A stretch of 64,000 nt of DNA from Bacteroidales bacterium (GTDB lineage: Bacteria > Bacteroidota > Bacteroidia > Bacteroidales > WCHB1-69), in contig JAZSKB010000004.1 of assembly GCA_045534635.1 (NCBI GenBank), forward strand, positions 617 to 64,616, read 5' to 3'. The notes under the pieces were generated by a model that was given only the letters and a program-made list of their open reading frames with translations, made no database searches and was not told where the DNA came from. The position numbers were made by a program, and so were the translations under genes. Of the stretch, positions 1 through 55,424 are shown piece by piece (position 1 is the first letter of the stretch; the number at the start of each line of letters is the position of its first letter).

Positions 1-180
1 GAAATAATAACGTTATACAATTATGACCCTGTTGGCAATGTTACCTATGTATATAGTGAATATCCATGGAAAGGAGCTTTTGATGAATCTTTCTGTTATG
101 ACGAAGCAGACCAACTTACTAATGCTGTTAATGACAAAGATTTTTACAACTTGCAGACACCGAAATCAACCCACAAATAG
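1..180 (+). CDS. RHS/YD-repeat protein, 3' end (partial; 5' end outside window)
   Basis: Frame 1 is open from the window edge to TAG 178-180. The translation EIITLYNYDPVGNVTYVYSE...FCYDEADQLTNAV shows two YD-repeat units. Confidence 0.5.
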   Translation, partial: EIITLYNYDPVGNVTYVYSEYPWKGAFDESFCYDEADQLTNAVNDKDFYNLQTPKSTHK

Positions 181-292
181 GATATACAAAAGATTGGCAT
201 GAGATTACTAAAAGAATTCAACACCAAACAAAAAGCTGTTGATAAAATTGTTTGAAGAGAGATATAAAAATAAAAGAAGAAATCAATAAACT

Positions 293-322
293 AAAAAGGG
301 AACCGATAGGTTCCCTTTTTTT
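293..322. terminator. Bidirectional rho-independent terminator
   Basis: GGGAACC (298-304) / GGTTCCC (309-315) stem with GATA loop. An A-run lies upstream and a T-run (316-322) downstream. It sits between convergent genes. Confidence 0.8.
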
Positions 323-334
323 AGATATAAAGAA

Positions 335-886
335 TTATTTTTTGAAGTAGCGATTAAATAGACCTTCAAATCCTTTACCGTGTCTTGCTTCATCTTTTGC
401 CATTTCGTGAACGGTATCGTGAATAGCGTCTAAATTACGTTCTTTCGCAATACGAGCGATACGCATTTTGTCTTCACAAGCACCGGCTTCAGCGTTCATA
501 CGTTTTTCTAAATTTGTTTTAGTATCCCAAACAACATCGCCAAGTAGTTCAGCAAATTTTGCACAATGTTCGGCTTCTTCCCAAGCATAACGTTTGAATG
601 CTTCAGCAATTTCAGGATAACCTTCTCTATCTGCTTGACGGCTCATTGCTAAATACATACCTACTTCTGTAGCTTCGCCCATGAAGTGAGCATTTAAATC
701 TTTAATCATTTCTTCACCAGAATCTTTTGCGATACCAATAACATGTTCTGTAACAAAGTTTAATTTGTTATTTTCATCTAAAACTTTAAATTTGTCTTTT
801 GGTTGTTTGCATTGAGGACAAAAATCTGGTGCATCATTTCCTTCGTGTACGTACCCACAAACGGTACAAATAAATTTCTTTGTCAT
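335..886 (-). CDS. rbr: Rubrerythrin with N-terminal rubredoxin-like domain (reverse domain order)
   Basis: 183 aa. N-terminal CTVC...CPQC metal site, followed by ferritin-like di-iron helices with ExxH motifs (EEAEH, DEARH). Confidence 0.9.
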
Positions 887-917
887 TTTACTGAATATTT
901 AATGTTAATATTTTAAA

Positions 918-1334
918 TTATTTGTTGTTACAATTTTTACAAACTCCACAATAGTAAATATCAATACTTTGTAATATAAAATCTTTGTCAATAGGAACAT
1001 TTTCATTATCAATATTTAAAGAAGGCATATCAAAAATACAAGAACATTTACAACAACGAAAATGTGCGTGAGGAGTTGTTTCTCCATCATAACGACAAGT
1101 ATTTCCATCAATAGTCAACTCTTTTGTAATTCCTGCATTTACAAACATTTTAAGAGTGTTGTAAACCGTTGTTTTTGAAAGAGTTGGAATAACATTTATC
1201 AAATCTTCGTATATTTGGTCAACGGTAGGGTGTGTTTTGTGCGTTGCCAAATAGTCGTATATCATCAATCTTTGAACAGAAGATTTGATATTGTGTTGCT
1301 CTAAATATTGTTTATGTTTATTTATTGAACTCAT
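918..1334 (-). CDS. Fur-family regulator (PerR-like)
   Basis: The track start (TTG 1373) lies inside the -7 box, so I use the first ATG at 1334 (MSSINKHK...). HAHF and two CxxC pairs (CCKC, CGVC) are present. It lies 31 nt upstream of rbr on the same strand. Confidence 0.8.
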   Translation of the reverse strand: MSSINKHKQYLEQHNIKSSVQRLMIYDYLATHKTHPTVDQIYEDLINVIPTLSKTTVYNTLKMFVNAGITKELTIDGNTCRYDGETTPHAHFRCCKCSCIFDMPSLNIDNENVPIDKDFILQSIDIYYCGVCKNCNNK

Positions 1335-1339
1335 TTTAT

Positions 1340-1358
1340 ATTTGTAATTATTACAAAT
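1340..1358. promoter_or_regulatory. Perfect 9-1-9 palindrome ATTTGTAAT-T-ATTACAAAT, candidate Fur/PerR operator
   Basis: Read directly from the sequence. It lies between the -7 box (1371-1378) and the ATG (1334) of the Fur-family gene. Confidence 0.55.
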
Positions 1359-1370
1359 TTGAAATTTTTG

Positions 1371-1378
1371 CAAAGATA
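1371..1378 (-). promoter_or_regulatory. -7 promoter box TATCTTTG (Fur-family gene/rbr)
   Basis: Matches the Bacteroidetes TAnnTTTG consensus, 37 nt upstream of the ATG. Confidence 0.6.
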
Positions 1379-1440
1379 CAATTTTTTTTTATACAAAAGC
1401 AAAAAAAAGGAAAAAAAATTTTAATAATAATAAAAAAGTG

Positions 1441-1448
1441 TACTTTTG
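1441..1448 (+). promoter_or_regulatory. -7 promoter box TACTTTTG (MFS transporter)
   Basis: TAnnTTTG match 16 nt upstream of ATG 1464. Divergent from the perR promoter. Confidence 0.6.
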
Positions 1449-1463
1449 CCGAAAAATAGAAAT

Positions 1464-2795
1464 ATGATGAATACGAGAAAACAGTCATTAGTGTTTAGTT
1501 TAATAATAATAGCCGTATTGTATTTTATATTTGGCTTTGTAACATGGCTTAATGGTACGTTGATACCATTTTTGAAAACAGCGTGTCAGTTGAACAATTT
1601 TTTAGCCTATTTTGTTACTTTTTCGTTTTATATTGCCTATTTTGTTACGGCATTGCCATCGTCTGTAATACTACAAAAAATAGGGTTCAAAAATGGCATT
1701 GTTTTAGGTTTATTTGTTATGACAATAGGTTCTGCGTTATTTTTACCAGCAGCATATATACGTTCTTATATTTTATTTTTGATAGGATTGTTTGTTATGG
1801 GTACAGGATTATCAATTATGCAAACGGCTGTAAATCCGTATGTAACTATTTTAGGACCCATAGAAAGTGCTGCACGACGTATAAGTATTATGGGAATGTG
1901 CAATAAATTAGCAGGCATTATTGCCCCAATTATTTTAGCAACATTTCTTTTGAAAGGAGCAGAAAATATTTATACAGAAATAAGTACGTGTGTTAATTCT
2001 TTTGAACACAATGCTTTATTAGACGAATTGGCTCTTCGATTAATAAAACCTTATTTGGCAATGACTATTATTTTGGCAGGTTTAACAATTTTAATGTTTT
2101 TTGTTTATTTACCTGAAGTAAATCATGAAGAAGAAAGTAAAACAACATCAACAACAATACTAAATTATCCACATTTATGGTTTGGAGTTGTTGCATTGTT
2201 TTTTTATGTTGGAGTGGAGGTTATAGCAGGAGATACTATTATTCGTTATGGAGAATCGTTGGGTATTGCTATGGAATCGGCACAATATTTTACAAGTATC
2301 ACTTTGATAACTATGTTGATAGGTTATTTTATTGGAATAATTGTTATCCCAAGATTTATCAATCAACGAATTGCATTATTGATATGTTCGATTTTAGGAA
2401 TAATTTTTACTTTATTAGCGATTTTTGTACCGACAGAAGCACAATTTTCGTTTCCATTTATCAATATTACCAATTTTGAATCAATTACAATGACAATACC
2501 ATATACAGTCTTTTTTGTTGCGATGTTAGGATTAGCCAATTCTTTAGTATGGCCAGCGATATGGCCTTTGAGTTTAGATGGTGTTGGACATCATGAAAAA
2601 ATAGGTTCCGCTTTATTGATTATGGCAATAGCTGGAGGAGCTTTGCTACCTTTGGTTTATGGCTATTTTTCAGATATAATGGGAACTCAAAATGCTTATT
2701 TTATTGCTATTATATGTTATATAGTAATAATGGCGTTTGCTTTGTTTGGTTATAAATTAGGAAAAAATAAAAATCATGAAGTGGATAAGAATTAA
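1464..2795 (+). CDS. MFS sugar transporter (glucose/galactose-fucose permease family)
   Basis: Polytopic hydrophobic ORF. The N-terminal FGFVTWLNGTLIPFLK resembles the GluP/FucP signature. The track TTG start overlaps the promoter box, so I use ATG 1464. Confidence 0.75.
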   Translation: MMNTRKQSLVFSLIIIAVLYFIFGFVTWLNGTLIPFLKTACQLNNFLAYFVTFSFYIAYFVTALPSSVILQKIGFKNGIVLGLFVMTIGSALFLPAAYIRSYILFLIGLFVMGTGLSIMQTAVNPYVTILGPIESAARRISIMGMCNKLAGIIAPIILATFLLKGAENIYTEISTCVNSFEHNALLDELALRLIKPYLAMTIILAGLTILMFFVYLPEVNHEEESKTTSTTILNYPHLWFGVVALFFYVGVEVIAGDTIIRYGESLGIAMESAQYFTSITLITMLIGYFIGIIVIPRFINQRIALLICSILGIIFTLLAIFVPTEAQFSFPFINITNFESITMTIPYTVFFVAMLGLANSLVWPAIWPLSLDGVGHHEKIGSALLIMAIAGGALLPLVYGYFSDIMGTQNAYFIAIICYIVIMAFALFGYKLGKNKNHEVDKN

Positions 2796-4038
2796 TTTGT
2801 TTTTTTATATTATTATATTGTTCATCAATACAATATTTGCACAAGATACATTATATACTCGTAAAATTATTAATAAATTGTGTTCAAAATCGTTTTGTGG
2901 AAGGGGATATGCTTTTAAAGGAGATTCTATTGCTGCTCAATTTATAGCAAAACAAATGCAAAATTTTGGATTACTTACATGGTATGATAATTATCAACAG
3001 CCGTATATGATAGGTGTAAATACTATTGGAAAAAATGCACAGTTTGATTTTGGCAAAAGTTATAATGAAAAAATAGAAGGAGATAATTTGAAAATAGACC
3101 CGATGAGTGTTTCCACAAAAGGTAAATATCGTATTATTGAATTAGAAAATTTTTCAAAAGAAAATTCTTCAAAAGTATTAGTGTGTATTGACGCAACAAA
3201 ATATGAAAATGACAAAGAACGTAAATTAGAATTACGTAATTTAATATATAATAATGAATTAGGTGTAAAAGGATATGTTGTTTTAGAAAGTAAACAAAGA
3301 ATGGCATCACCACAAAATGCTTTAAAAAAAGCAAATCATTGTATAGTTTATTTGGTTAAAGATAGTGTAAAAGCACCATTAACAACGGTGAAAATAAATA
3401 TAGATGCAAATTTTAATGATAATTATAAATGTCAAAATGTGGTGGGCTATATCAAAGGGACAAAATATACAGATAGTTGGTACATTATAGGAGCACATTA
3501 CGATCATTTGGGCATGATGGGAAAAAAAGTATTGTATCCGGGAGCCCAAGATAATGCAACAGGAGTTGCTCTTGTGCTTGATTTGGCTCGTTATTTTAGC
3601 GAAGAAAAACATCAACCACAACACAATATTATGTTTGTTGCTTTCGATGGAGAAGAATCAGGACTATTAGGGTCAATGTATCTTGCAAAAAATTTACCAA
3701 TATCACCAAAAAATGTTAAAATGATGATTAATTTAGATATGGTTGGTACTGGTGAAGAAGGATTTAAAATTTTTGGAATAGAAACATTTCCAAATGAATG
3801 GGAAAAAATTCAAAAATTGAATGAAAAAAATAATTATACAAATAACTTAAAAATAGATGGTATGCGTCCCAATAGTGACCATTATCCATTTTATAAAGTT
3901 GGTTGTCCAGCGATATTTATGCTTACTATGGGAAAATCAGGGAAATATCATCATACTGAAGATTTACCTGAAAATGTTACCTTTAGCAATTATTATGGTT
4001 TGTTTAATATGATAGTAGATTATTTAAATTTTGAATAA
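2776..4038 (+). CDS. M28-family metallopeptidase, secreted
   Basis: Signal peptide present. Motifs GAHYDHLG, GAQDNATG, FDGEESGLLGS and NLDMVG are typical M28 metal ligands. Confidence 0.8.
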   Translation: MKWIRINLFFYIIILFINTIFAQDTLYTRKIINKLCSKSFCGRGYAFKGDSIAAQFIAKQMQNFGLLTWYDNYQQPYMIGVNTIGKNAQFDFGKSYNEKIEGDNLKIDPMSVSTKGKYRIIELENFSKENSSKVLVCIDATKYENDKERKLELRNLIYNNELGVKGYVVLESKQRMASPQNALKKANHCIVYLVKDSVKAPLTTVKINIDANFNDNYKCQNVVGYIKGTKYTDSWYIIGAHYDHLGMMGKKVLYPGAQDNATGVALVLDLARYFSEEKHQPQHNIMFVAFDGEESGLLGSMYLAKNLPISPKNVKMMINLDMVGTGEEGFKIFGIETFPNEWEKIQKLNEKNNYTNNLKIDGMRPNSDHYPFYKVGCPAIFMLTMGKSGKYHHTEDLPENVTFSNYYGLFNMIVDYLNFE

Positions 4039-4039
4039 A

Positions 4040-4735
4040 ATGGCAAAACTTATTCTTGTTCCTACGCCTATTGGTAATATGGAAGATATTACTTTACGAG
4101 CATTACGTGTTTTGCAAAAATCGGATATAATTTTAGCAGAAGATACTCGTGTTAGTAAAAAATTGTTGACACATTATAATATTGATAAACCGATTGTGGC
4201 ACATCATCAACATAATGAACACCAACAATTAGAAGCATTTCTTCGTACAATAGAAAAGTATAATCAAGTAGCAGTTGTTACAGATGCAGGGACGCCAGGA
4301 ATATCAGACCCTGGATTTTTGTTGCTGAGAGCTTGTATAGAAAAAGGCATAGAAGTTGAAACTTTGCCAGGACCGACAGCATTTGTGCCAGCACTTGTCA
4401 ATTCGGGGTTACCTTGTGATAGATTTTATTTTTATGGTTTTTTACCACATAAAAAAGGAAGAAAAACGGCTTTGGAATATTTGACCAATGTGCCAGAAAC
4501 TTTTATTTTGTATGAATCTCCTTTTCGTTTAATAAAAACATTGCAACAACTTTATGAATTTGCAGGGGAAAGACAAATTGCTGTTTGTCGAGAACTTACT
4601 AAAATGTTTGAAGAAACATTTCGTGGAAAAATAAGTGAAGCAATTGCTTATTTTTCTCAAAAAGAGGTTAAAGGAGAAATAGTAATTGTTGTACAAGGAA
4701 AAGAACAAAGCGAAAAAACAAAAATGAAAGAATAG
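4040..4735 (+). CDS. rsmI: 16S rRNA 2'-O-ribose C1402 methyltransferase
   Basis: MAKLILVPTPIGN...ILAEDTR; tetrapyrrole-methylase fold pattern. ATG at 4040. Confidence 0.9.
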   Translation: MAKLILVPTPIGNMEDITLRALRVLQKSDIILAEDTRVSKKLLTHYNIDKPIVAHHQHNEHQQLEAFLRTIEKYNQVAVVTDAGTPGISDPGFLLLRACIEKGIEVETLPGPTAFVPALVNSGLPCDRFYFYGFLPHKKGRKTALEYLTNVPETFILYESPFRLIKTLQQLYEFAGERQIAVCRELTKMFEETFRGKISEAIAYFSQKEVKGEIVIVVQGKEQSEKTKMKE

Positions 4736-4738
4736 TTT

Positions 4739-5878
4739 ATGGCTTCAATATATATTCATATTCCTTTTTGTTTTCAGAGATGTGATTATTGTAATTTTTT
4801 TTCTTCAACACGATTACAACAAAAATCTGCGTATTTATTAGCACTAAAAAAGGAATTGATTTTACGAAAAAACTATCTTGAAGCAGAACCTATAGAAAGT
4901 ATTTATTTTGGAGGAGGAACACCTTCTGTACTTACGGCTAATGAAATAGATGATATTATTTCTTGTATTTCAGATAATTATATTGTTTCTTCGTATGCAG
5001 AAATTACTTTAGAAGCAAATCCAAACAATTTATGTGAAGAGTATTTTAAAAACTTGACAACAACCAGAATTAATAGGTTAAGCATTGGAATTCAATCGTT
5101 TAATGCTGATAATCTAAAAATTTTAGGAAGGATACATTCTGGAAAACAAGCAGAAGATTGTTTGCTTTTGGCAGAAAAATACAATTTTAACAATCTTTCC
5201 ATTGATTTAATGTACGGTTATCCTTTATTGACAATACAACAATGGATAGCGAATTTGGAAAAAGTAAAAGATGTAAAGCATCTTTCGTGTTATTGTTTGA
5301 CATTGGAAAAACAATCGGTTTTGTATAAAAGAATAAAAAATCAAAATTTACAACAAGCTACAGAAGATGATATTTTACAACAAATTGAGATTTTAGAAGA
5401 GTTTGCACAACAAAATAATTTTATTCATTACGAAACTTCTAATTTTTGTAAAAAAGATTTTCATTCTCGACACAATACCGCTTATTGGCAAAATAAATCT
5501 TATTTGGGAGTTGGTTGTTCGGCACATTCTTTTAATAAAAATAGTAGGCAATGGAATTTAAGTAATATTGATTTATATATCAATAAATTAAATAAAATTA
5601 AAGATGTGTCGGAATTTGATATTTATGAATATGAAAGTTTAAGTAAAATAATGCAAATCAATGAATATATAATGACATCGTTGCGAACAATTTGGGGGTG
5701 CGATTTAGATTATATAAGCAAATATTTTTCAGAAGAAAAAGCCAATCTGTTGAAAGAAAAATTGACATTAATAGATACAAAAAACTACATATTGAAAAAT
5801 AATATTTTACAACTTTCTCCGCAAGGACAATTATTAGCTGATGCTATTGCTTGTCAATTATTTTTTGAAGAAGAATAG
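4739..5878 (+). CDS. hemW: Radical-SAM heme chaperone HemW (HemN-like)
   Basis: CFQRCDYCNF (CxxxCxxC); 379 aa. Confidence 0.85.
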   Translation: MASIYIHIPFCFQRCDYCNFFSSTRLQQKSAYLLALKKELILRKNYLEAEPIESIYFGGGTPSVLTANEIDDIISCISDNYIVSSYAEITLEANPNNLCEEYFKNLTTTRINRLSIGIQSFNADNLKILGRIHSGKQAEDCLLLAEKYNFNNLSIDLMYGYPLLTIQQWIANLEKVKDVKHLSCYCLTLEKQSVLYKRIKNQNLQQATEDDILQQIEILEEFAQQNNFIHYETSNFCKKDFHSRHNTAYWQNKSYLGVGCSAHSFNKNSRQWNLSNIDLYINKLNKIKDVSEFDIYEYESLSKIMQINEYIMTSLRTIWGCDLDYISKYFSEEKANLLKEKLTLIDTKNYILKNNILQLSPQGQLLADAIACQLFFEEE

Positions 5879-5883
5879 TTTTG

Positions 5884-6531
5884 TTAAAATTTGCTAACTT
5901 TTGGAGCATTCCCAAGAGGAATATGAATAATATATTTTTCGTTGAAATAGGTATCAGAAAACCAATTTTGAATAGGATATTTTATTGTTTTTCGAGGAAC
6001 TTGTTGCAATTCTTGGGTTAAATCTCCTCCTTTGAGATAAAGAATTCCATTGGCAATGGTATTAAAAGAATCTTTACACACACGATGATGAATCCATTTA
6101 AAGAAAATAGGTAATGTTGTAACGGCTCGACTTACAATAAAATCATATTCACAATTTAATTCTTCGGCTCGAATTTGTGTGCATTCTACGTTGTTTAGTT
6201 GCAAACTATCTACAACGGCTTGAGCAACTTTTATTTTTTTTCCTATAGAATCAACTAAATGAAAATGGGCAAAAGGAAACATAATCGCTAAAGGAATTCC
6301 AGGAAAACCTCCTCCTGTGCCGACATCTAAAATTGTAGTTTGATTTTTGAATTGTAATAATTTGGCGATACTCAAAGAGTGTAAAATATGATTAGTGGAA
6401 ATATTTTCAATATCTTTGCGAGAAATAACGTTAATTTGTGCATTCCAAAATTTATACAAATCAGGCAAAGCATTGAATTGTTCCTGTTGTTGTTGAGTCA
6501 ATGTCGGAAAATGTTGTTCTATGATATTCAT
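5884..6531 (-). CDS. rsmG: 16S rRNA m7G527 methyltransferase
   Basis: GTGGGFPGIPLAI SAM motif; 215 aa. Confidence 0.9.
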   Translation of the reverse strand: MNIIEQHFPTLTQQQQEQFNALPDLYKFWNAQINVISRKDIENISTNHILHSLSIAKLLQFKNQTTILDVGTGGGFPGIPLAIMFPFAHFHLVDSIGKKIKVAQAVVDSLQLNNVECTQIRAEELNCEYDFIVSRAVTTLPIFFKWIHHRVCKDSFNTIANGILYLKGGDLTQELQQVPRKTIKYPIQNWFSDTYFNEKYIIHIPLGNAPKVSKF

Positions 6532-6545
6532 TTATTTAGAATTTG

Positions 6546-6976
6546 TTTGCAAAAGTATCATTTTTTTCTATAAAATTATAGGTTTTAAATTCAACTTAGA
6601 AAGAATAGGTTCAATAAAAATATCACCAATAACACCGAAAAAAGCAACATAAATATTTCTTGCTGTAAATCAGCATATTGAAGAAATTTAGAAAAGTTTT
6701 AAATTTCACAAAAAATTTTTTTCATTTTTTTATCAAAAACCGACCACTTTGGCACAATATTTGTTGTGTATAAAATGTTGAATGATAACAATATGCTAAA
6801 AAATGAGAGTTTATAAAAAACATACAAAAAACACTTATAACTGACTGATAGACAGTAGTATTAGTGGATGTTTTATAGTGTATTGTTTTGAGGCTCGTTA
6901 TTACAAGCTACCTGCATTAAATTTAAGTTATAACATCAACTTATAAAGTTATAAAAAAAGTGTTATCTTTGTAAAA
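6546..6976 (-). repeat. Dispersed intergenic repeat, copy A (full length, both promoter arms)
   Basis: Hand-aligned to copies B-G. 6546-6628 is identical to the reverse complement of 36458-36540. It contains -7 boxes at 6550-6557 (minus strand, toward rsmG) and 6964-6971 (plus strand, toward the hydrolase). Confidence 0.9.
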
Positions 6977-7000
6977 TCATTTTTATAATTTTATATAGTG

Positions 7001-23305: not shown

Positions 23306-23398
23306 CCTCAAAACAATACACTAAAAACAGTCCATAACACTACTGTTTATCAGATAGTTATAATCGATTTTTTTGATATGTTTTTTATAAACTGTCAT
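23306..23398 (+). repeat. Dispersed intergenic repeat, copy D (segment 1 only)
   Basis: CCTCAAAACAATACACTAAAAA...CTACTGTTTATCAGATAG...TTTTTTATAAACTGTCAT aligns to segment 1 of copies A, B, F and G. Confidence 0.85.
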
Positions 23399-23415
23399 AT
23401 ATCGTTATAAAGAAA

Positions 23416-26400
23416 TTATTTTACATTGATACGAATACCTTCGCTATGTGAAGTAAATTCAGGAGCATACATACATTGAATAGTAGTGATACCATTAGAA
23501 AATTGCCCTTTTTGTGTAGCGATAAGAGTATATTCAAAAACATAAGTTCCTTTTGGTAAATATTCAATAAAAAAATTAGTTGCAACATCGCGTGTAGATT
23601 CATAATACATTAAACCTCCTTGATAGCGGTATACAGAAAGAATATTAGTAGGTTCAAAACAAGAGGCTCGCATATCTTTAAGATGAACATATTCCATATC
23701 TCTATCGGTAGAAATAACAATTCTTACTTTTATTTTATCACCAACAGCAATAGTATTATTATTTTTAATTTCAGATAAATGTTCTCCTCTATCGTTAAAA
23801 ATGATTTTATAAAGTTGTTTATTTATTGCTAAAGAAGTTTTTGCAGAAGAAATTTTATCTAAATTTTCAAAATATTGCCAAAAACAACTTCCCCAACTTG
23901 TACCATTATCAATTTGTTGTAAAGAAATATTTCCCATATCGGGTGTTATTTCATCGTTATTCCAAGACATTTTGAAGTATCCTGTTCCACTTTCGATAGA
24001 GGAAATTGTATCACTATAAATAATTTGTTCTCCAATAGTGATTTTAGTTTTGTGCAATTTGCTAAGATTGTTGTTACCACGTAATAGCAAAGCATAACAA
24101 GCAGCGGTTGTTGATTTGGTACTTCCCCAATTTTGAGATTGACGTTGTTTGAGTAACCACAATTGCATTTTTGCAACGCTTTCACTATCTTTGGAAATGG
24201 TTTCAAATGCTTCTATCATTAGGGCTTGACGTTCTATTGGTGCTTCGTACCAATACCAACCTAAACCTTCTTTATGCCACCACATTCCCATTTCATCGGA
24301 ATATTGTGCTTTGGATTTAATGGAAGTGATTATTTTTTCAGCAGTAATTTTATCGCCTGAACGATAAAGACTCAAAGCGATAAGTGTTTGTCCATATAGA
24401 TTTTTTTCTGTCCAATATTTTTGTGCTTGATTTATACAGAAATCAAACATTTTTTTATTTTTTTCTGCTATTGGAAATTGTTCAAAGAAAAAACTTCTTG
24501 CGTAGAGGTATTGTGTAACGTTGTAAGAAAGAAAATTATCGGAAATAGAACGATTTTTTAGCGAATCGTACCATTTTTGCATACTATTATCAATAAATTG
24601 TATTGCTTTTCGAAGAGTATTGGCATTTAGATTTTCGGAAATATTCATTGTTTGAAGATGACCACAACCGCTTACAATATGGCTGGTAATGAAAAAATTG
24701 GAACGATACCCTCCTGAAAACCAAGACCAACCTCCATCGTTTCTTTGTCCTTTTTCTAATGCTTTTTGGGCTTTATTCAATTCGAGATTAATTCTTTTTG
24801 TATCAAATAAATTAGAAATACGTTGTTTATTTTCTTTTTCCGATTGTGCTTCCAAAAGCCAAGGAGAATTTTCAATAGCAATATTTTTCAATTCGCTATT
24901 TTTTTCTAAATTAGACAAAAAAGCATTACTATCTTCTTGTTGCCATTGCATAAAAACAGCTTTAATTTCTGGAGAAGAATTAACAATTGTAGATGCTATT
25001 GTATTGGCATATAGGCGACTAAATATTTGTTCGTAACATTCGTACGGATATTCTATTAGATAAGGAAGCGATTGTAAAGCATACCATAAAGGATTTGCGG
25101 TAAATTCAAAAGTGAATTTGTAATTAGAAAGAGTATTATTACTGTCTGTCAAATGTTTATAGGCTTGTTTAAATTTATCAAAAGTAAAAGTTTTAGTTTG
25201 TCCTTTGTTTACATAAATGGGCATAGTTTCGGTAACTAACATTCGGTTTGATAAAATAGGCAATATTTTTTGTTCTCCGTCGCTATGTATATCGCTAATT
25301 GCCATTGTTTTACAATTAATAGCACCAATTTCATGAGGAATAATGAGTGTAAAACTTACAATATCGCTTTCTCCTTTGGAAAGATTGAAAGTATCTTTGT
25401 TTACTTGATAAATAATATCAAGAGGTTTGTTATCAATGGAATTAGAAATTTGCAATGAAACATGTCCCGCAATTTTTTTTACACTCATATTGACAACTTT
25501 AGCAGTAAAAATTATTGTATCTCCTTCACGTAAGAAACGAGGATAATTAACAACTAACATCAAATCTTTTTGGGTTTGTATAAATTGTTCAAACAAGCCA
25601 TAGTAAAGATTTTGATTATGAGCGATACCATGCATTTTCCATTTAGTAAGAGATTCTGGCATTGTGGCTGAAAATATTATATTGCCATTGCTATCACTTT
25701 GTAAATGAGGATAAAAAAAGGCTGTTTCATTAAAATTAGAACGTAAATTTGGTAGTACTGATTTCGTTATAGATGCTTCTTCTTTAACAGAAACTTCTTC
25801 TTTAACAGATACTATAGAAAGAACATTTTCGTCATCAACCATTCCTATTTTCTTAGCATTTCTTGGTCTAACATTGTTTTTCATTGTTCCCGCACAACAT
25901 ATTGGATATTTAAAACTAATATTAGAAGGTTTATTTATCCATTGGGGAGATAAAATATTTATCAAAGGATTGTGATTTTTTTCAAAAAATCTAGACCTAA
26001 TAGTCTCATGATTAAAATCTTTGTAATCAAAATATGTATAATGAAATCCGTCTATAATAGGAAGAGAAAAATTATAATTGTGTTTGACAAATGCATCCAA
26101 AGAGGCATCGTACATATTGCAAAGCAATTCTGCAACAATAGGTTTACCTTCCGCATTTTTTATTTTGAAATGCCATTGTTCTTTTTCTCCGGGCTGTAAA
26201 TAATTTCTAAATGTAACATATTCAAAATAAATATTTTTATTTGTTTCTTGTACACTTATTTTTTTTGTTTGATTATAAAAATGATTGTGTTGATGAACAA
26301 AAATATTGCAGTGTAAATATCCCAAATGTTCTTTTTTTATTGGAAAATCAAAGTGTATTTGTCCTTTGTTTATCATTTTATGCTCTTGATAGATAATAGA

Positions 26401-29295: not shown

Positions 29296-29303
29296 CAAAA
29301 ATA
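29296..29303 (-). promoter_or_regulatory. -7 promoter box TATTTTTG (A2M)
   Basis: TAnnTTTG match on the minus strand, 22 nt upstream of ATG 29274. Confidence 0.55.
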
Positions 29304-29542
29304 TCATTTTTTACAGAAACCGTAAAATGTTTTGCAAATTTTTTCTTGAAAGCATATCTCCTTTACATGTTTACAACCCACCAAAATCAAAAATATCATA
29401 CTTTTTAGAATAAAATATTACATGGTTTGGTAGTGAATTAGAAATTTATAAATTATATTACGTTTTTTTCGCATATAAATACCTTCAATGCGGGTGGATT
29501 GTATATGAGTAAGATGTGAGCCATGGTTTTTCGTTCATTAAC

Positions 29543-29887
29543 GGGTCTCTGCTGGTAAATGTAGGAGACTTGTTATTACGAGCCTCAAAACAATACACTA
29601 TAAAATATCCATTAATACTACTGTCTATCAGGTAGTTATAAGTATTTTTTGTGTGTTTTTTATAAACTCTCATTTTTTAGCATATTGTTATTATTCAACG
29701 TTTTATACACAACAAATATTGTACCAAAGTGGTCAATTTTTGATAAAAAAATGAAAAAAATTTTTTGTAAAGTTTAAAACTTTCCTGAATTTATTTAATA
29801 TGTTGATTTTCAGTAAGAAAGGTTTGTGTTGTTTTTTCAAGTGTTCATGGTGTGTACTATTAGGTTTCTTTTGATTATAAATTCAAC
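29543..29887 (+). repeat. Dispersed intergenic repeat, copy B (segments 1-3, diverged 4)
   Basis: Aligns with the reverse complement of copy A along its length, and with copy G over about 190 nt (about 11 substitutions plus one 3-nt indel by hand count). Confidence 0.9.
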
Positions 29888-29894
29888 AAAAAAA

Positions 29895-30494
29895 TCATTT
29901 AATATTACAATCGCAAGAAGGAGAAAATAAAATTTTTACATTTGGCAACAATTCTTGCATTGCTTTTTTATGACTATCGTGCATATTGACAACACGTAAA
30001 TCTATCGTTTTCAAATTATTATCAAGTGCAGAAATTTCTTGTGGTAATGTGATAATCAATGTTGACCACATATCTAAGTATTTCAAATTTGTAAGATTTT
30101 TTATCTCTTTAGGCAATTCTGCAATATTGTTTCTATTGATTATTAGTTGTTGCAATTGAGACAATTTCCCAATTTTTGCAGGCAATTCTTTCAAACGATT
30201 GTTGGACAAATCTAAATATGTAAGATTTTGTAATTCAAATATTTGTTCAGGAATTTCTTTAAGATTTACTCCTGAAAGAATCAATTGTTGTAAATTAGGA
30301 AAATTTAGTATTTTTTGAGAAAAATCATTTGGCAATTTACGTTTAAATTTCAAACGGTAAACCTTTTCACAAGCAATAGTATCTGTTTGTTCAAACGAAA
30401 AAAATAAAGTTTGTTGAGCCAAAGAAGCACTATCTAACACTTGAGCCTTTGCAACAAAAGGCAATAAAAACAAAAGCAAAAAACATTTTTTCAT
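29895..30494 (-). CDS. Leucine-rich-repeat protein, secreted
   Basis: Signal peptide MKKCFLLLFLLPFVAKAQ. About 23-residue LRRs (LTYLDLSNNRLKELP, LQQLIINRNNIAELP). The start is trimmed past the promoter box. Confidence 0.8.
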   Translation of the reverse strand: MKKCFLLLFLLPFVAKAQVLDSASLAQQTLFFSFEQTDTIACEKVYRLKFKRKLPNDFSQKILNFPNLQQLILSGVNLKEIPEQIFELQNLTYLDLSNNRLKELPAKIGKLSQLQQLIINRNNIAELPKEIKNLTNLKYLDMWSTLIITLPQEISALDNNLKTIDLRVVNMHDSHKKAMQELLPNVKILFSPSCDCNIK

Positions 30495-36299: not shown

Positions 36300-36300
36300 T

Positions 36301-36541
36301 TGTTAATCAATGTTTATATATAGCAAGAATCGTGCCAAAGTGGTCGATTTTTGATAAAAATAAAAAAAAATTTTTTGTAAAATTTAAAATTTTCCTAAAC
36401 TTTCACAATATGTTGATTTTCAGCAAGAAAAGTTTGTATTGCTTTTTTCGGTATTACTGGTGATATTTTTATTGAACCTATTCTTTCTAAGTTGAATTTA
36501 AAACCTATAATTTTATAGAAAAAAATGATACTTTTGCAAAG
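36301..36541 (+). repeat. Dispersed intergenic repeat, copy C (segments 2-4 with left promoter arm)
   Basis: 36458-36540 is 83/83 identical to the reverse complement of 6546-6628. It ends in the -7 box TACTTTTG (36529-36536), which faces kdsA. Confidence 0.9.
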
Positions 36542-36576
36542 TTGTTTCTTCAAATCAATATCAAATAATTTTTTCA

Positions 36577-37618: not shown

Positions 37619-37626
37619 TACATTTG
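37619..37626 (+). promoter_or_regulatory. -7 promoter box TACATTTG (lipA)
   Basis: TAnnTTTG match 30 nt upstream of ATG 37656. Confidence 0.55.
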
Positions 37627-46348: not shown

Positions 46349-46461
46349 TATTTTGCAAAGATAACACTTTTTTATAACTTTCTAAGTTGAATTTTTAATC
46401 GCACTCCAAGTAGTCAATTTTTGATAAAAAAATGAAAAAAATTTTTTTTGCAAAGTTTTTG
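46349..46461 (+). repeat. Dispersed intergenic repeat, copy E (right promoter arm plus part of segment 2; segment 1 absent)
   Basis: The reverse complement of 46349-46390 aligns to 6936-6976 with 2 mismatches and 1 indel. 46400-46458 aligns to segment 2. It contains the hflX -7 box (46356-46363, minus strand). Confidence 0.85.
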
Positions 46462-46517
46462 TTGAGAAATTTTGTGAGGTAAAATTGATAATTTTTCGTT
46501 GTTAATTAAAAAAATGC

Positions 46518-46525
46518 TATCTTTG
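46518..46525 (+). promoter_or_regulatory. -7 promoter box TATCTTTG (lpxD)
   Basis: TAnnTTTG match 27 nt upstream of ATG 46552. Confidence 0.6.
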
Positions 46526-46551
46526 CGAAATGGATATAATTGTTAAGCACG

Positions 46552-48788: not shown

Positions 48789-48881
48789 AAATTAATAAGC
48801 AATTTTGAAATAAAAATTCCTGATATGACTTCAACCTAAAAAAATATTGAACAATAAACAATAAGAATATAAGTAAAAATG

Positions 48882-48972
48882 ATAGTTCAAAAAAATGACA
48901 CAAAAAAATTGCTTGTAACTACCTGATATACAGTAGCATTATAGGCTTTTTATAGTGTATTGTTTTGAGGCT
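48882..48972 (-). repeat. Dispersed intergenic repeat, copy F (segment 1 only)
   Basis: ...CTACCTGATATACAGTAG...TTTTATAGTGTATTGTTTTGAGGCTG aligns to segment 1 of copy A in the same strand sense. Confidence 0.85.
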
Positions 48973-49125
48973 GTTTTTTTTCATGAACTTTTGGATGAAT
49001 ATTTAAATTACTTCGCAAAAGGTAAGATTACAAATTCATCACCAAAAATTGAGAAAGTATATTATCAAAATCAAGCTTTGCAAAACAAAGAACTTCCACC
49101 TCGTAATGGGAATGACTACCAATAA
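48937..49125 (+). pseudogene. Start-less gene remnant running out of repeat F
   Basis: Open frame with no ATG: ...FIVYCFEAVFFHELLDEYLNYFAKGKITNSSPKIEKVYYQNQALQNKELPPRNGNDYQ*. The first ~12 codons are repeat-derived. Confidence 0.3.
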
Positions 49126-52529: not shown

Positions 52530-52563
52530 AACCTTTTCTTGATTTATTAAATTATTTTAATCT

Positions 52564-52671
52564 TTACCAAGTCCTAAAAAATATTACATTTTTTAGGACT
52601 TGCTGTTTTAAAAATATCAAACAAAAAACTATATTGGTAAAATTACCCACAACATCATAATTGTATAACAT
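52564..52671 (-). pseudogene. RHS/YD-repeat gene fragment
   Basis: The reverse complement of 52636-52681 matches window positions 1-45 at 38/45 nt. The fragment translates (EII)MLYNYDVVGNFTNI... and then runs into the hairpin. Confidence 0.6.
52569..52601. terminator. 14-bp perfect hairpin (bidirectional terminator candidate)
   Basis: AAGTCCTAAAAAAT-ATTAC-ATTTTTTAGGACTT, 40 nt after the M49-like gene stop. Confidence 0.65.
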
Positions 52672-52708
52672 TATTATTTCGTTGTTAATTCTCCTAATTT
52701 CTATTCTG

Positions 52709-52716
52709 CAAAGATA
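52709..52716 (-). promoter_or_regulatory. Orphan -7 promoter box TATCTTTG facing the YD fragment
   Basis: The minus strand reads AAAAAAAGTGTTATCTTTG, the same extended sequence as the hflX and hydrolase promoters. No intact minus-strand gene lies downstream. Confidence 0.5.
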
Positions 52717-52728
52717 ACACTTTTTTTG

Positions 52729-52736
52729 TACTTTTG
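52729..52736 (+). promoter_or_regulatory. -7 promoter box TACTTTTG (island operon)
   Basis: TAnnTTTG match 58 nt upstream of ATG 52794, back-to-back with the orphan box. Confidence 0.55.
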
Positions 52737-52793
52737 CATTTGGATTTCAAAATGAAATCACTTATAGAGTCTAACATTTAAAAATTTGTAATT

Positions 52794-53444
52794 ATGACAG
52801 AAAATTTTGATTTTTTAAAGAATCCATTTAAAGGATTAACTAATGAAAACAAAGAAGAGTTTCAAAACAAATGCTCTGAAATTGCAGAAAACCTATTTAA
52901 CAATTTCTGTATTCAATGTGGTGAAAACGGAGAAGAAAAGTATTACAAGTTCGCAGAAATTGAGTTTTATTATTACAACAAGGAAAATTTAAATCAAAAA
53001 TGGAATGAAAAAACTTATCCGCGAACAAACAAAGATGCTGGAGATTTGTTTTTCCATTATAGTGGTGTAGATATTTGTTTTGACAGCAAGTTTGACAATG
53101 GTATTTTTGGCGGCATTTTGATTAGAAGCTTGAAAGACAATCAGGGGAAATATATTACAGGACCATCTGTATGTATGCTCGAAATTTTGAATGCTTGTTC
53201 AAAATCTGAAAGAATGCCAAAATTAGTTTCACCGAAAAAAGAAAAGTGTGAAATTGGAGAACCTATTGAACGATATGGCATTGAACAAAAGGATGATTTA
53301 CCATTGTGCTTCTACGACAAGAATCTATTTGAAAAATATACAAGCAAAGATAATTGTAAAGAAATATTTGAAAATGCAACTTGGGATTATGCCAAAAAGT
53401 CACCAAAGAAAAAAATAAGGTATTATAAAAGATTTTGCAAATAA
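52794..53444 (+). CDS. Hypothetical protein, possible 3-methyladenine-glycosylase (AAG/Mpg)-like fold
   Basis: 216 aa. FAEIEFYYY, LFFHYSGVDICF and GGILIRS loosely follow the I-x-E-x-E-A-Y / YVY..YG..C.N / AVLIRA pattern of the Mpg family. This is a weak by-eye match. Confidence 0.3.
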   Translation: MTENFDFLKNPFKGLTNENKEEFQNKCSEIAENLFNNFCIQCGENGEEKYYKFAEIEFYYYNKENLNQKWNEKTYPRTNKDAGDLFFHYSGVDICFDSKFDNGIFGGILIRSLKDNQGKYITGPSVCMLEILNACSKSERMPKLVSPKKEKCEIGEPIERYGIEQKDDLPLCFYDKNLFEKYTSKDNCKEIFENATWDYAKKSPKKKIRYYKRFCK

Positions 53445-53850: not shown

Positions 53851-54828
53851 ATGAGAATTACATTCGGATTACTAATTGGAATTATTGTCTGTTTAATATC
53901 CACAAAAGCAGCAACTTGTAACGAATTTTATAAAAATAACAACTTAATAAATAAACCTATGTTTGAAATGAAAGACAAGAAACCGAGCAACGAGCAAACC
54001 GTCTATATGTCGGAACTGCTAATGGACAGATACCCCGAAACTTGCAAGAACCTGATTGCCATTCTCGAAAAGCATAATGTGAAATACTCGTTTATTAAAG
54101 GCACTAAAGATATTTGGTGCCGCGACTATATGCCAGTCCAAACCGAATCGGGAAAGTTTATCCAGTTCAGATACGACCCAAGTTATTTGAAAGGCAAAAA
54201 GGAATGGGAAGATTCGCGTTCCGATGTGAAAGAAGTTTGCCGGTTGAATAATATCAACGCTACATTTTCGGACATAAACCTCGATGGTGGAAATATTCTT
54301 ATCTGTGATGGACGAGCAATATTGTCGGACAGGATTTTCTCCGAAAATCCAAATTATGAAAAGGATTCTTTGACAAACGAGTTATCGAAACTGCTGGAAT
54401 GTAAAGAAATTATCATAATTCTTGCACTAAAATCACAAAATGAAGATTTTACAGGACACGCAGATGGAATGGTGAGATTTGTGAACAGGAACACCATTAT
54501 AGGCAACGAAAGATGCCCCAACGAGTACAAATATATGAAAGAAGGATTGCAAAAGGTTATTAATGATTACAATCTTGAGTATATCGACATTCCATTTTTT
54601 GAAGACAAAGACCGCAAACATCCTGACAGTGCAGTCGGAATATATGTGAACTATCTGGAGGTTAATGACTTGATTGTGATGCCGATATTTAATCGGGACG
54701 AGGACAATCAGGCTCTTGAAATCATAAAAAAGACATTTCCAGACAGGAAAATCGAAACAATCGACTACAGCGATGTCGCCAAGGAAGGCGGTTTGCTAAA
54801 TTGTACGACATGGGTGATTCATAACTAA
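53851..54828 (+). CDS. Agmatine/peptidyl-arginine deiminase-family (guanidino-modifying enzyme) protein with N-terminal signal sequence
   Basis: DIWCRDYMP, LDGGNI, TGHADGMVRF and C-terminal GGLLNCTTW (catalytic Cys codon 54802-54804) follow the PAD_porph/AguA motif order. Alternative starts lie at 53959 and 53968. Confidence 0.7.
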   Translation: MRITFGLLIGIIVCLISTKAATCNEFYKNNNLINKPMFEMKDKKPSNEQTVYMSELLMDRYPETCKNLIAILEKHNVKYSFIKGTKDIWCRDYMPVQTESGKFIQFRYDPSYLKGKKEWEDSRSDVKEVCRLNNINATFSDINLDGGNILICDGRAILSDRIFSENPNYEKDSLTNELSKLLECKEIIIILALKSQNEDFTGHADGMVRFVNRNTIIGNERCPNEYKYMKEGLQKVINDYNLEYIDIPFFEDKDRKHPDSAVGIYVNYLEVNDLIVMPIFNRDEDNQALEIIKKTFPDRKIETIDYSDVAKEGGLLNCTTWVIHN

Positions 54829-55093: not shown

Positions 55094-55299
55094 AAACCAG
55101 TGCTTTATAATAACGAGCCTCAAAACAACACACTATAAAATAGCTATTAAAACTACTGTCTATCAGGAAGTTATAAGCAATTTTTTTGGTGTGTTTTTTA
55201 TAAACTCTCATTTTTTAGCATATTGTTGTTATTCAACATTTTATACACAACAAATATTGTTCCAAAGTGGTCAATTTTTGATAAAAAAGTGAAAAAAAT
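55078..55299 (+). repeat. Dispersed intergenic repeat, copy G (segments 1-2)
   Basis: Aligns to copy B 29543-29760. Its start overlaps the 3' end of the preceding ORF. Confidence 0.9.
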
Positions 55300-55424
55300 A
55301 GAATTTTTAACTCTACTTCAAGAAAACCAATCTATTAAAAAAGAAGAAAAAGAAAATATTTTTTTTAACTATAATTGTTAACAACATTTTTTGTTTTTTT
55401 AGCGATGATTAATGATTTTTTTTC

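What the first reader, a model, noticed from the sequence alone, without database searches (positions are those of the whole stretch)
46349..46461. hflX and hydrolase promoters are homologous arms; copy E is the element without segment 1
The reverse complement of 46349-46390 (TCAACTTAGAAAGTTATAAAAAAGTGTTATCTTTGCAAAAT) matches 6936-6976 with 2 mismatches and 1 indel. So the promoter driving hflX and the one driving the alpha/beta hydrolase are the same right arm of the element, and homology again stops about 5 nt past the -7 box. Copy A is therefore bounded by outward promoters on both sides. In copy E the right arm joins directly to segment 2, and the ~190 nt carrying segment 1 are missing. 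In copy A a 13-nt direct repeat, TCAACTTAGAAAG (6591-6603) and TCAACTTATAAAG (6936-6948), brackets the body. The same extended box AAAAAA(A)GTGTTATCTTTG also occurs at 52709-52727.
Basis: seen in the sequence. Interest (0 to 1): 0.55.

Follow-up and report, generated by a model that had tools for sequence, protein, structure and literature searches.

The report
Promoter-carrying mosaic repeats that reshuffle a genome
The hflX and hydrolase promoters are true copies of one short promoter module. It belongs to a species-specific family of patchwork intergenic repeats in an uncultured Bacteroidales bacterium. These repeats are where closely related strains have rearranged their chromosomes, which is a known kind of phenomenon seen here in a new lineage.

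Summary
The non-consensus 23-mer TCAACTTAGAAAGTTATAAAAAA occurs only at these two sites, where 0 are expected by chance. Among 231 promoter pairs this pair scores 38 against a mean of 13.5 (sd 5.1).

Both arms carry strong Bacteroidetes -7 boxes (TATCTTTG) about 30 nt upstream of hflX and of the hydrolase gene. Copy E is the arm fused directly to a 46-65 nt core of segment 2, with no segment 1.

There is no single bounded element. The intergenic DNA is a mosaic of modules:
- seg1, a ~95-nt imperfect palindrome (5 copies)
- seg2 (5 copies)
- seg3 (3 copies)
- promoter arms
- a ~30-nt module containing the 13-mer

The bodies contain no promoter-like site, and no transposase or recombinase is encoded in the window. 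No Rfam, GTDB, JGI, viral or sister-species match was found.

In conspecific strains (99.4-99.6% identity), contigs end or change neighbours at these spacers. One strain carries a C/A hybrid element, which implies an inversion of about 30 kb between inverted copies A and C. Other junctions fall at the edge of the 13-mer module or inside the promoter A-tract/-7 core.

Best reading: BIME/Correia/BrickBuilt-like mosaic repeats that supply promoters and serve as recombination substrates. This is a new member of a known kind and of moderate interest.

The parts
46350..46398 (-). hflX promoter arm (P_R type). The -7 box TATCTTTG is at 46356-46363, the A-tract at 46368-46373, the 13-mer TCAACTTAGAAAG at 46378-46390 and the 17-mer at 46378-46394. 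The hflX ATG is at 46334.
   Evidence: (PWM score 16.0; 99.97th percentile is 9.6)
46396..46460 (+). seg2 core of copy E (AATCGCACTCCAAGTAGTCAATTTTTGATAAAAAAATGAAAAAAATTTTTTTTG), fused directly to the arm
   Evidence: 46408-46453 vs 6749-6704, 89%; nhmmer 46401-46460, E=4e-11
46461..46525 (+). E-specific spacer followed by the lpxD promoter (A-tract 46506-46512, -7 box TATCTTTG 46518-46525; lpxD ATG at 46552). Strain junctions fall at 46509-46526.
   Evidence: PWM score 27.5
6928..6977 (+). Hydrolase promoter arm (P_R type). The 13-mer variant TCAACTTATAAAG is at 6936-6948 and the -7 box TATCTTTG at 6964-6971. The hydrolase ATG is at 7001.
   Evidence: (PWM score 20.9); all hydrolase contigs end inside this arm
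6776..6918 (-). seg1 of copy A, a ~95-nt imperfect palindromic unit (CCTCAAAACAATACAC ... GTATGTTTTTTATAAACTCTC)
6691..6791 (-). seg2 of copy A
6534..6700 (-). seg3 plus the left promoter arm (P_L) of copy A. The 13-mer is at 6591-6603 (read on the plus strand) and the -7 box TACTTTTG at 6550-6557. It drives rsmG (start at 6531).
   Evidence: (PWM score 17.6)
29559..29904 (+). Copy B: seg1 29559-29701, seg2 29685-29786, diverged seg3 29776-29904. It lies between the LRR gene stop and the A2M gene start. No promoter-like site inside it.
   Evidence: strain breakpoint at 29888
36300..36548 (+). Copy C: seg2 36300-36396, then seg3, the 17-mer (36483-36499) and the P_L promoter (-7 box 36529-36536) driving kdsA. 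It forms an inverted repeat with copy A.
   Evidence: (I2: 185 nt, 90%)
55095..55306 (+). Copy D: seg1 55095-55238 and a shortened seg2 55223-55306, upstream of prs. In strain L021 seg1 is absent and the upstream neighbour is different; the junction is at 55210-55222.
23306..23425 (+). Copy F: solo seg1 that overlaps the last codons and the stop of the A2M gene
48853..48989 (-). Copy G: solo seg1 located 3' of the aminotransferase gene. It sits on the strain-variable side of a junction at 48816.
52703..52752 (-). Third, weaker arm-like promoter (AAAAAAAGTGTTATCTTTG, -7 box 52709-52716). It lies back to back with a plus-strand promoter (-7 box 52729-52736).
   Evidence: D15, I14; PWM score 15.5

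Best explanation
The window comes from an uncultured Bacteroidales bacterium of about 30% GC. Its intergenic spacers carry a species-specific family of non-coding mosaic repeats. The modules are a ~95-nt palindromic unit (seg1), two further body modules (seg2, seg3), a ~30-nt module containing the 13-mer, and promoter arms. The promoter arms consist of an A-tract plus a sigma-A type -7 box TAnnTTTG.

The hflX promoter (46350-46398) and the hydrolase promoter (6928-6977) are paralogous copies of one such arm. Copy E is that arm joined to a seg2 core.

Inferred mechanism:
- The arms act as the working promoters of the adjacent genes. The bodies have no promoter of their own.
- The modules are spread and recombined by host recombination rather than by a dedicated transposase. 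This includes RecA-type exchange between copies of 100-300 nt at about 90% identity, and short-homology exchange within the ~20-nt extended promoter core or the 13-mer module.
- Only exchanges that leave each operon with a promoter survive. As a result junctions pile up at promoter edges and the spacers become patchworks.

Shown here: the homology, the promoter-consensus quality, the modular make-up, the restriction to this species in the data sampled, and the coincidence with strain rearrangement breakpoints, including a C/A hybrid element.

Inferred only: promoter activity and the recombination pathway.
For: Homology of the arms.

Promoter quality: a PWM was trained on 16 independent promoters. 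The arms score 16-21 against a 99.97th percentile of 9.6, and no site above 8 lies inside seg1, seg2 or seg3. The -7 consensus TAnnTTTG is established for Bacteroidetes (PMC7366714, PMC9723704).

Modular family. seg1 is an imperfect palindrome (z-scores down to -3.3).

Flanking genes are unrelated housekeeping genes. No transposase or recombinase is present in the window.

Species restriction:
- No hits in about 100 kb from sister species (HflX 84-88% identical).
- Only chance hits in GTDB representative genomes and in JGI metagenomes.
- No hits in viral contigs.

Recombination:
- L041 carries a hybrid element that is C-like up to column 54 and A-like from about column 88. It joins the TPR gene to rsmG, followed by window 6774..1 in inverted order. 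This fits an inversion of about 30 kb between inverted copies A and C.
- L008 joins a methylmalonyl-CoA mutase terminator to the hflX arm, 5 nt beyond the 13-mer.
- L002 and L031/32/35 have junctions inside the lpxD promoter A-tract/-7 core. In L031 the promoter is chimeric with the A2M promoter upstream part.
- L021 has a junction at the seg1/seg2 border of copy D.

Tally: five element spacers (A-E) were never traversed collinearly by another strain's contig. They account for 42 contig ends and 13 internal breaks. The sampled non-element spacers were traversed 54 times, with breaks in 3.
Against: - Only 7 copies in the window plus a few strain variants were available, so the genome-wide catalogue is unknown.
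- Promoter activity and transcription start sites are untested.
- One breakpoint (37591) lies in a spacer that has no body module.
- Copy A shows a 13-nt direct repeat whose outer flanks match the flanks of unoccupied 30-mer modules. That pattern also fits an insertion event.
- Contigs were fetched using genes that lie next to the elements. This inflates the count of contig ends at elements, although not the contrast with the traversed spacers.
- The strain contigs are metagenome assemblies.
Confidence: 0.6

Rival explanations
1. The body of copy A (6604-6935: seg3, seg2, seg1 and a linker) is a small non-autonomous insertion, or a site-specifically integrated unit. Its target is the ~30-nt module TAAAAAT-TCAACTTAGAAAG-TTATAAAAAA. 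The two 13-mers would then be a target-site duplication or att cores. The hflX arm in E and L008 would be a partly occupied or unoccupied target sitting in front of a promoter.
For: - In A the left 13-mer keeps the left flank seen in the unoccupied-type sites (TTTTAAAT), and the right 13-mer keeps their right flank (TTATAAAAAAAGTG).
- Three copies of the module without a body share both flanks: L008 3947-3980, L008 12996-13025 and L041 about 2105-2135.
- The 13-mer contains the palindrome AACTT-N3-AAGTT.
- seg1 has MITE-like internal inverted repeats.
Against: - Only one copy (A) has the repeat on both sides.
- C and E have one-sided junctions. B, D, F and G have none.
- The sequence to the left of the 13-mer in A and C (the P_L promoter) is itself repeated.
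- No terminal inverted repeats at the body ends were evident on reading them; this was not examined separately.
- No transposase or integrase is present in the window.
Confidence: 0.15
2. The repeats are a multi-copy functional gene family. Possibilities are a small RNA (the seg1 hairpin) or a small protein or type I toxin-like peptide encoded in seg3. One candidate is MLI[YF]SKK.L.CFF..W. In the other frame the candidate is the hydrophobic MLLFSVLLVIFLLNLFFLS, whose stop codon lies inside the 13-mer. On this view the repeats are conserved because they are expressed.
For: - seg1 folds into a ~90-nt hairpin with z-scores of -2 to -3.3, and a few G-U or compensatory changes favour the reverse strand.
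- The frame-1 ATG and reading frame of seg3 are kept in A, B and C. The A, C and L041 differences in frame 2 are synonymous (reading of the sequence).
Against: - No promoter-like site lies inside any body module.
- No Rfam match, even at E<=1.
- Orientation relative to the flanking genes is inconsistent.
- Copies are truncated at various points and the start codon varies (ATG, GTG, GTA).
- T-rich DNA yields hydrophobic ORFs by chance.
- Only three seg3 copies are available.
Confidence: 0.1
3. The arm similarity is only convergence on the organism's extended promoter consensus, and the apparent rearrangements are metagenome assembly chimeras at repeats.
For: - Many promoters share AAAAAAA-nnnn-TAyyTTTGCaaa, including in sister species.
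- The 52716 box is explained mostly by this consensus.
- The strain contigs come from short-read metagenome assemblies.
Against: - The 17 nt upstream of the consensus match at 16 of 17 positions. The 23-mer is unique to the two arms, with 0 expected by chance.
- The pair lies 4.8 sd above the other promoter pairs.
- The junction sequences share less than a k-mer with the alternative partner. The L031-type junction is seen in three independent samples. The L008 junction shares only a 30-nt repeat.
- The window's own copy E is confirmed by L001, L002, L004 and L033.
Confidence: 0.04

Closest known systems
BrickBuilt MITE-like element of Porphyromonas gingivalis (Klein et al. 2015, PMC4596501)
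   Same: Same order (Bacteroidales). Species-specific, always intergenic, multi-copy, built from subunits, carries promoter elements able to act in both directions, and has been proposed to shape genome evolution.
   Different: BrickBuilt is defined by a tandem 23-nt minisatellite between leader and tail subunits with small inverted-repeat ends. No tandem array is present in these elements. No sequence relationship was tested or seen.
Correia repeat-enclosed elements (Neisseria)
   Same: Short dispersed intergenic repeats that provide outward promoters for neighbouring genes and are associated with rearrangements or inversion (review PMC10969869).
   Different: Correia elements have defined 26-nt terminal inverted repeats, a TA target duplication and sigma-70 promoters. 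Here the only terminal inverted repeat is the promoter consensus itself, no general target duplication exists, and the promoters are of the Bacteroidetes TAnnTTTG type.
BIMEs (E. coli mosaic elements built from palindromic units) and pneumococcal BOX elements (own knowledge)
   Same: Extragenic mosaics in which a palindromic unit is combined with several other short conserved modules in variable order and number. Copies act as recombination substrates.
   Different: No sequence homology is expected. BIME modules are 20-40 nt and bind gyrase or IHF. Here the modules are 30-170 nt, and two of them are complete promoters for the flanking genes.
Bacteroides invertible promoters (invertons) and shufflons (own knowledge; PMC12068327 listed, not read)
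   Same: Bacteroidales DNA rearrangements that change which gene a promoter faces. Alternative arrangements coexist in populations.
   Different: Invertons are about 200-bp promoter segments flanked by short inverted repeats and flipped by a dedicated recombinase. Here each promoter stays attached to its own gene, the 13-mers are direct repeats, the documented event is a roughly 30-kb inversion between 230-nt homologous copies, and no recombinase gene is nearby.

Membership tests
Bacteroidetes sigma-A (sigma-ABfr) promoter | A -7 box matching TAnnTTTG, placed a short distance upstream of the gene | tested here: met
   TATCTTTG at 46356-46363(-) lies 22 nt before the hflX ATG. TATCTTTG at 6964-6971(+) lies 29 nt before the hydrolase ATG. 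PWM scores are 16.0 and 20.9 against a 99.97th percentile of 9.6. Consensus from PMC7366714.
Bacteroidetes sigma-A (sigma-ABfr) promoter | A -33 TTTG motif | tested here: not met
   No TTTG lies 17-21 nt upstream of either box. The motif was not recovered in F. johnsoniae RNA-seq data either, so it is weakly defining.
Bacteroidetes sigma-A (sigma-ABfr) promoter | A mapped transcription start or reporter activity | not testable with these tools
   No expression data for this uncultured organism.
MITE | Short, non-coding, multi-copy, with no transposase | tested here: met
   7 copies of 120-430 nt in 64 kb. No Pfam transposase or recombinase anywhere in the window.
MITE | Terminal inverted repeats at the ends of the element | tested here: inconclusive
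   For the composite copy A, the only terminal inverted repeat is the pair of outward promoters (22 nt, 77%, equal to the promoter consensus). seg1 has an internal 18-nt inverted repeat at 83% (29589-29606 / 29672-29689) and is an imperfect palindrome.
MITE | A target-site duplication flanking each copy | tested here: not met
   Only copy A has a 13-nt direct repeat, and it lies inside the promoter arms. No flanking direct repeat was seen around the other six copies in the repeat list and flank alignments; no dedicated search was run for them.
MITE | A parent IS with matching ends | not testable with these tools
   No IS in the window. The seg2 core pattern found nothing relevant in GTDB or JGI, and the seg1 and 13-mer-module patterns found nothing in viral contigs.
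BIME/BOX-type mosaic intergenic repeat | Variable combinations of discrete modules that include a palindromic unit, located outside genes | tested here: met
   Combinations seen: seg1+2+3 (A, B), seg2+3 (C), seg1+2 (D), arm+seg2 (E), seg1 alone (F, G). All are in spacers.
BIME/BOX-type mosaic intergenic repeat | Sequence homology to the E. coli PU/REP or pneumococcal boxA/B/C modules | not tested
   No reference sequences were compared. Rfam gave no match. Membership is therefore claimed only by architecture.
BrickBuilt (P. gingivalis) | A tandem 23-nt minisatellite between leader and tail subunits | tested here: not met
   Tandem Repeats Finder reports no array in any element copy, apart from a low-complexity 14-nt A/T run at 46437-46473.
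Bacteroides invertible promoter (inverton) | A promoter segment flanked by inverted repeats, found in both orientations, with a site-specific recombinase | tested here: not met
   The arms keep the same orientation and the same gene in every assembly. The 13-mers are direct repeats. No recombinase in the window.

The most novel reading that the evidence does not exclude
The ~30-nt module TAAAAAT-TCAACTTAGAAAG-TTATAAAAAA (palindromic core AACTT-N3-AAGTT), possibly together with the extended promoter core, is a dedicated recombination or target site. A recombinase encoded elsewhere in the genome would use it to insert body modules and to swap promoter-led operon blocks. That would give programmed, possibly reversible, reshuffling of housekeeping operons in this Bacteroidales lineage, rather than passive homologous recombination.
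Probability: 0.08. Interest if true: 0.75.

Novelty: new member of a known kind. Interest (0 to 1): 0.4.

Why it matters
This shows that ordinary housekeeping genes (hflX, a hydrolase, rsmG, kdsA, and lpxD in some strains) in an uncultured gut- or environment-type Bacteroidales bacterium are driven by duplicated, exchangeable promoter modules.

The repeats carrying these modules mark the points where strains that are 99.5% identical differ in gene order. At least 8 breakpoints fall within 64 kb, including a roughly 30-kb inversion between two copies.

There are two practical consequences. First, these repeats explain why short-read assemblies of this species fragment at the same spacers in dozens of samples. 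Second, MAG contigs that cross these spacers should be treated with care.

Biologically, this adds a Bacteroidales example to the small set of repeat families that both supply promoters and drive rearrangement (Correia, BrickBuilt, BIME).

Tried and rejected
- Rfam at gathering threshold on the whole window, and at E<=1 on copies A and E: no family apart from two tRNAs.
- GTDB representative genomes and JGI metagenomes scanned with the seg2 core AAGTRGTCRRTTTTTGATAAAA: only chance 22-25 nt hits in unrelated organisms of about 46% GC or in Bacillota.
- IMG/VR scanned with a seg1 pattern and with the 13-mer module: nothing found.
- Sister-species loci (HflX 84-88% identical): no module hits. There hflX sits next to an acyl-ACP thioesterase gene, and its promoter shares only the core consensus.
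- seg2 as an internal promoter for a seg3 small ORF: rejected. It has TTTTTTG without the TA, and no site in seg1, seg2 or seg3 reaches a PWM score of 8.
- seg1 as an intrinsic terminator: only copy G is followed by a T-run, and orientation relative to the upstream genes is inconsistent.
- BrickBuilt-type minisatellite: absent.
- A first similarity test on -50..-15 alone gave only z of about 2 for the arm pair, because the homology starts near -33. It was replaced by the -40..+10 local alignment and the 23-mer search.
- The look-up of the agmatine deiminase-like protein (53851-54828) found no record, so the reciprocal junction of copy D was not obtained.
- The look-up of the 155-aa ORF showed that copy G is usually traversed and added little.

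Full report
**1. The observation**

The 13-mers lie at 6591-6603 and 6936-6948. The box AAAAAAGTGTTATCTTTG is exact at 6954, 46373(-) and 52726(-).

Bacteroidetes promoters resemble one another, so I tested whether the match exceeds the consensus.

- The window has about 20 intergenic sites of the form AAAAAAA-nnnn-TAyyTTTGCaaa. The hflX promoters of two sister species share this core.
- Among 22 such sites, the hflX/hydrolase pair has a local alignment score of 38. The mean is 13.5 (sd 5.1). The pair ranks second of 231, behind only rsmG/kdsA.
- The part of the arm that lies outside the consensus, TCAACTTAGAAAGTTATAAAAAA, occurs with up to 3 mismatches only at these two places. None is expected by chance.
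- The third box at 52716 is a weaker relative (scores 28 and 25). It is explained largely by the consensus.

**2. The organism and the surrounding genes**

The window is about 30% GC. Its HflX matches proteins labelled 'MAG: Bacteroidales bacterium'.

The genes flanking the repeats are unrelated housekeeping genes:
- rsmG and an alpha/beta hydrolase (copy A)
- a 148-aa ORF and alpha-2-macroglobulin (F)
- A2M and an LRR protein (B)
- a TPR protein and kdsA (C)
- hflX and lpxD (E)
- an aminotransferase and a 155-aa ORF (G)
- an agmatine-deiminase-like gene and prs (D)

No ORF in the window is a transposase or recombinase.

**3. Anatomy of the repeats**

Self-comparison and nhmmer profiles define several modules.

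- **seg1.** It runs from CCTCAAAACAATACAC to about AAACTCTCAT. There are five copies: A 6776-6918(-), B 29559-29701, D 55095-55238, F 23306-23425 and G 48853-48989(-). It is a ~95-nt imperfect palindrome with an 18-nt, 83% internal inverted repeat. Its hairpin gives z-scores of -2 to -3.3, and covariation is weak.
- **seg2.** Its core is AAGTRGTCRRTTTTTGATAAAAAAATGAAAAAAATTTTTTG. It occurs in five copies (A to E).
- **seg3.** It occurs in A and C, and in diverged form in B.
- **P_L arm.** This left promoter arm is identical in front of rsmG and kdsA.
- **P_R arm.** This right arm lies in front of hflX and the hydrolase gene.

A PWM trained on 16 other promoters gives the arms scores of 16-21, against a 99.97th percentile of 9.6. 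It finds nothing above 8 inside any body module. The arms are therefore good sigma-A type promoters (TAnnTTTG; PMC7366714 and PMC9723704). The bodies have no promoter.

In copy E the 17-mer CTTTCTAAGTTGAATTT of the arm abuts seg2 directly (TTAATCGCACTCCAAGTAGTC..., compared with C's GAATCGTGCCAAAGTGGTC). About 178 nt of copy A, comprising seg1 and a linker, have no counterpart in E. E also lacks seg3 and P_L. It continues through a unique 45 nt into the lpxD promoter.

The module combinations seen are 1+2+3 (A, B), 2+3 (C), 1+2 (D), arm+2 (E) and 1 alone (F, G). Ends recur only approximately. For example, the seg1/seg2 border falls within A coordinates 6774-6792 in C, F, G and the L021 variant of D.

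**4. Where the family occurs**

- No Rfam family matches.
- The seg2 core pattern gives only chance hits in GTDB representative genomes and JGI metagenomes.
- seg1 and the 13-mer module are absent from IMG/VR.
- Five loci from two sister species (HflX 84-88% identical) have no module.

In the data sampled, the family is restricted to this species.

**5. Comparison with conspecific strains (99.4-99.6% identity)**

Short-read contigs carrying rsmG, the hydrolase gene, hflX, lpxD, prs or the TPR gene end at the edges of the repeats in dozens of samples.

Contigs that do cross the repeats show different neighbours.

- **L041** (a 240-kb SPAdes contig) joins the TPR gene to rsmG through an element that is C-like up to alignment column 54 and A-like from about column 88. 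It is followed by window 6774..1 in reverse order. This is the product expected from homologous exchange within seg2 between the inverted copies A and C, which share 185 nt at 90%. It implies an inversion of the roughly 30 kb between them.
- **L041-L044 and L046** also break at 29888, the edge of copy B.
- **L008** places a methylmalonyl-CoA mutase gene and its terminator directly against ...TAAAAAT-TCAACTTAGAAAG-TTATAAAAAAGTGTTATCTTTG-hflX, with no seg2.
- **L002** keeps all of copy E, but a different gene (AMP-binding/acyltransferase) follows. The junction lies in the promoter A-tract.
- **L031, L032 and L035** have lpxD behind a chimeric promoter. Its upstream 38 nt match the A2M promoter region (window 29343-29291) and are fused at TAAAAAATG to lpxD's own -7 box. 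After the aminotransferase gene these contigs switch to purA at 48816.
- **L021** has copy D without seg1 and with different upstream genes.

The tally summarises this. The A-E spacers were never traversed collinearly by another strain's contig. They account for 42 contig ends and 13 internal breaks. The sampled non-element spacers were traversed 54 times, with breaks in three.

The junctions are unlikely to be assembly artefacts. The junction sequences share less than a k-mer with the alternative partner. The L031 type is seen in three independent samples. Copy E of the window is reproduced in L001, L002 and L004.

**6. The 13-mer**

The 13-mer belongs to a ~30-nt module, TAAAAAT-TCAACTTAGAAAG-TTATAAAA(AA). 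The module is found in four settings:
- in front of the hflX promoter
- in front of the hydrolase promoter (one change in the spacer of its AACTT-N3-AAGTT palindrome)
- at two promoterless sites in other strains (L008 12996-13025, followed by a GC-rich hairpin; L041 about 2105-2135, a TCAACTCAGAAAG variant)
- in truncated form (AAATTCAACTTAGAAAG) at the end of seg3 in A and C

In copy A the left 13-mer keeps the module's left flank and the right 13-mer keeps its right flank. This is what insertion of the 332-nt body into one module, with duplication of the 13-mer, would produce. It is the only two-sided case, so I keep this as a rival at 0.15.

**7. Interpretation**

The most economical reading is a species-specific family of mosaic intergenic repeats. 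Their arms are the working promoters of adjacent genes. Their copies serve as substrates for host recombination. Longer copies undergo homologous exchange, as shown by the C/A hybrid. Short homology in the extended promoter core and the 13-mer module gives the junctions at promoter edges.

Promoter activity and the recombination pathway are inferred, not shown.

**8. Comparison with known systems**

By architecture this resembles BIME/BOX mosaics, in which a palindromic unit is combined with other modules. By function it resembles Correia elements and P. gingivalis BrickBuilt, which are intergenic, species-specific and promoter-bearing (PMC4596501, PMC10969869).

- It fails the MITE criteria for target duplications. 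Terminal inverted repeats are inconclusive.
- It lacks BrickBuilt's minisatellite.
- It is not an inverton. The promoters stay with their genes, the repeats are direct, and no recombinase is nearby.

**9. Verdict**

This is a new member of a known kind. It is of moderate interest mainly because of the density of strain-level rearrangements tied to the repeats and because of the chimeric promoters.

Noticed in passing
window 52530-52800 and 1-51; L041 15479-15670; L033 6231-6383: Two back-to-back divergent promoters share one A/T tract (-7 boxes at 52709-52716 on the minus strand and 52729-52736 on the plus strand). The minus-strand promoter faces a gene-free stretch of about 130 nt that ends at a bidirectional hairpin (52569-52601). 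That stretch contains a 37-codon ORF and a 51-nt sequence (52630-52680) repeated in inverse orientation at window 1-51 (82%). L041 shows a 192-nt paralogue (92%) just beyond the window's left end. L033 differs here. This may be a small gene or sRNA that is itself duplicated.
   Followed up: partly
window 6604-6660 (minus strand), 36409-36495, 29797-29870: seg3 contains two overlapping small ORF candidates. Frame 1 reads MLI[YF]SKK.L.CFF..W (17-24 aa), with the ATG kept in A, B and C. Frame 2 in copy A reads MLLFSVLLVIFLLNLFFLS (19 aa), with its TGA stop inside the 13-mer. The A, C and L041 differences are synonymous in frame 2, but the start codon varies (ATG, GTG, GTA). No promoter-like site lies upstream.
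   Followed up: partly
L031/L032/L035 1-53 compared with window 29291-29343: In three samples the upstream part of the lpxD promoter is replaced by the upstream part of the A2M promoter, fused at TAAAAAATG to lpxD's own -7 box. This is a chimeric promoter with the crossover inside the extended promoter core.
   Followed up: yes
L008 12996-13060: A copy of the 30-nt 13-mer module is followed not by a promoter but by a GC-rich hairpin, CACAATATGCCAGCCGTACGGCTGGCATATTCG. This is unusual in a 30% GC genome.
   Followed up: no
window 29296-29307: The best promoter-like site for the A2M gene (-7 box at 29296-29303 on the minus strand, PWM score 24.9) lies inside the ORF as listed from the ATG at 29307. 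The true start of the 1963-aa alpha-2-macroglobulin gene is therefore probably further downstream.
   Followed up: no
L063 1-60 compared with window 48865-48900: One strain has a 13-nt tandem duplication (AAAAAAATGACAC x2) inside copy G's seg1.
   Followed up: no
window 37591 / L008 12765: A strain rearrangement breakpoint lies about 28 nt upstream of the lipA -7 box (37619-37626), in a spacer with no seg1-3 module. Not every breakpoint needs a body module.
   Followed up: partly
L009-L013: In two sister species, hflX sits in a conserved block (acyl-ACP thioesterase, DUF3276, ABC2, MFS, porin). In the window species both flanks of hflX differ from that block, and the upstream neighbour varies even between strains. 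This suggests much faster reordering in this species.
   Followed up: partly
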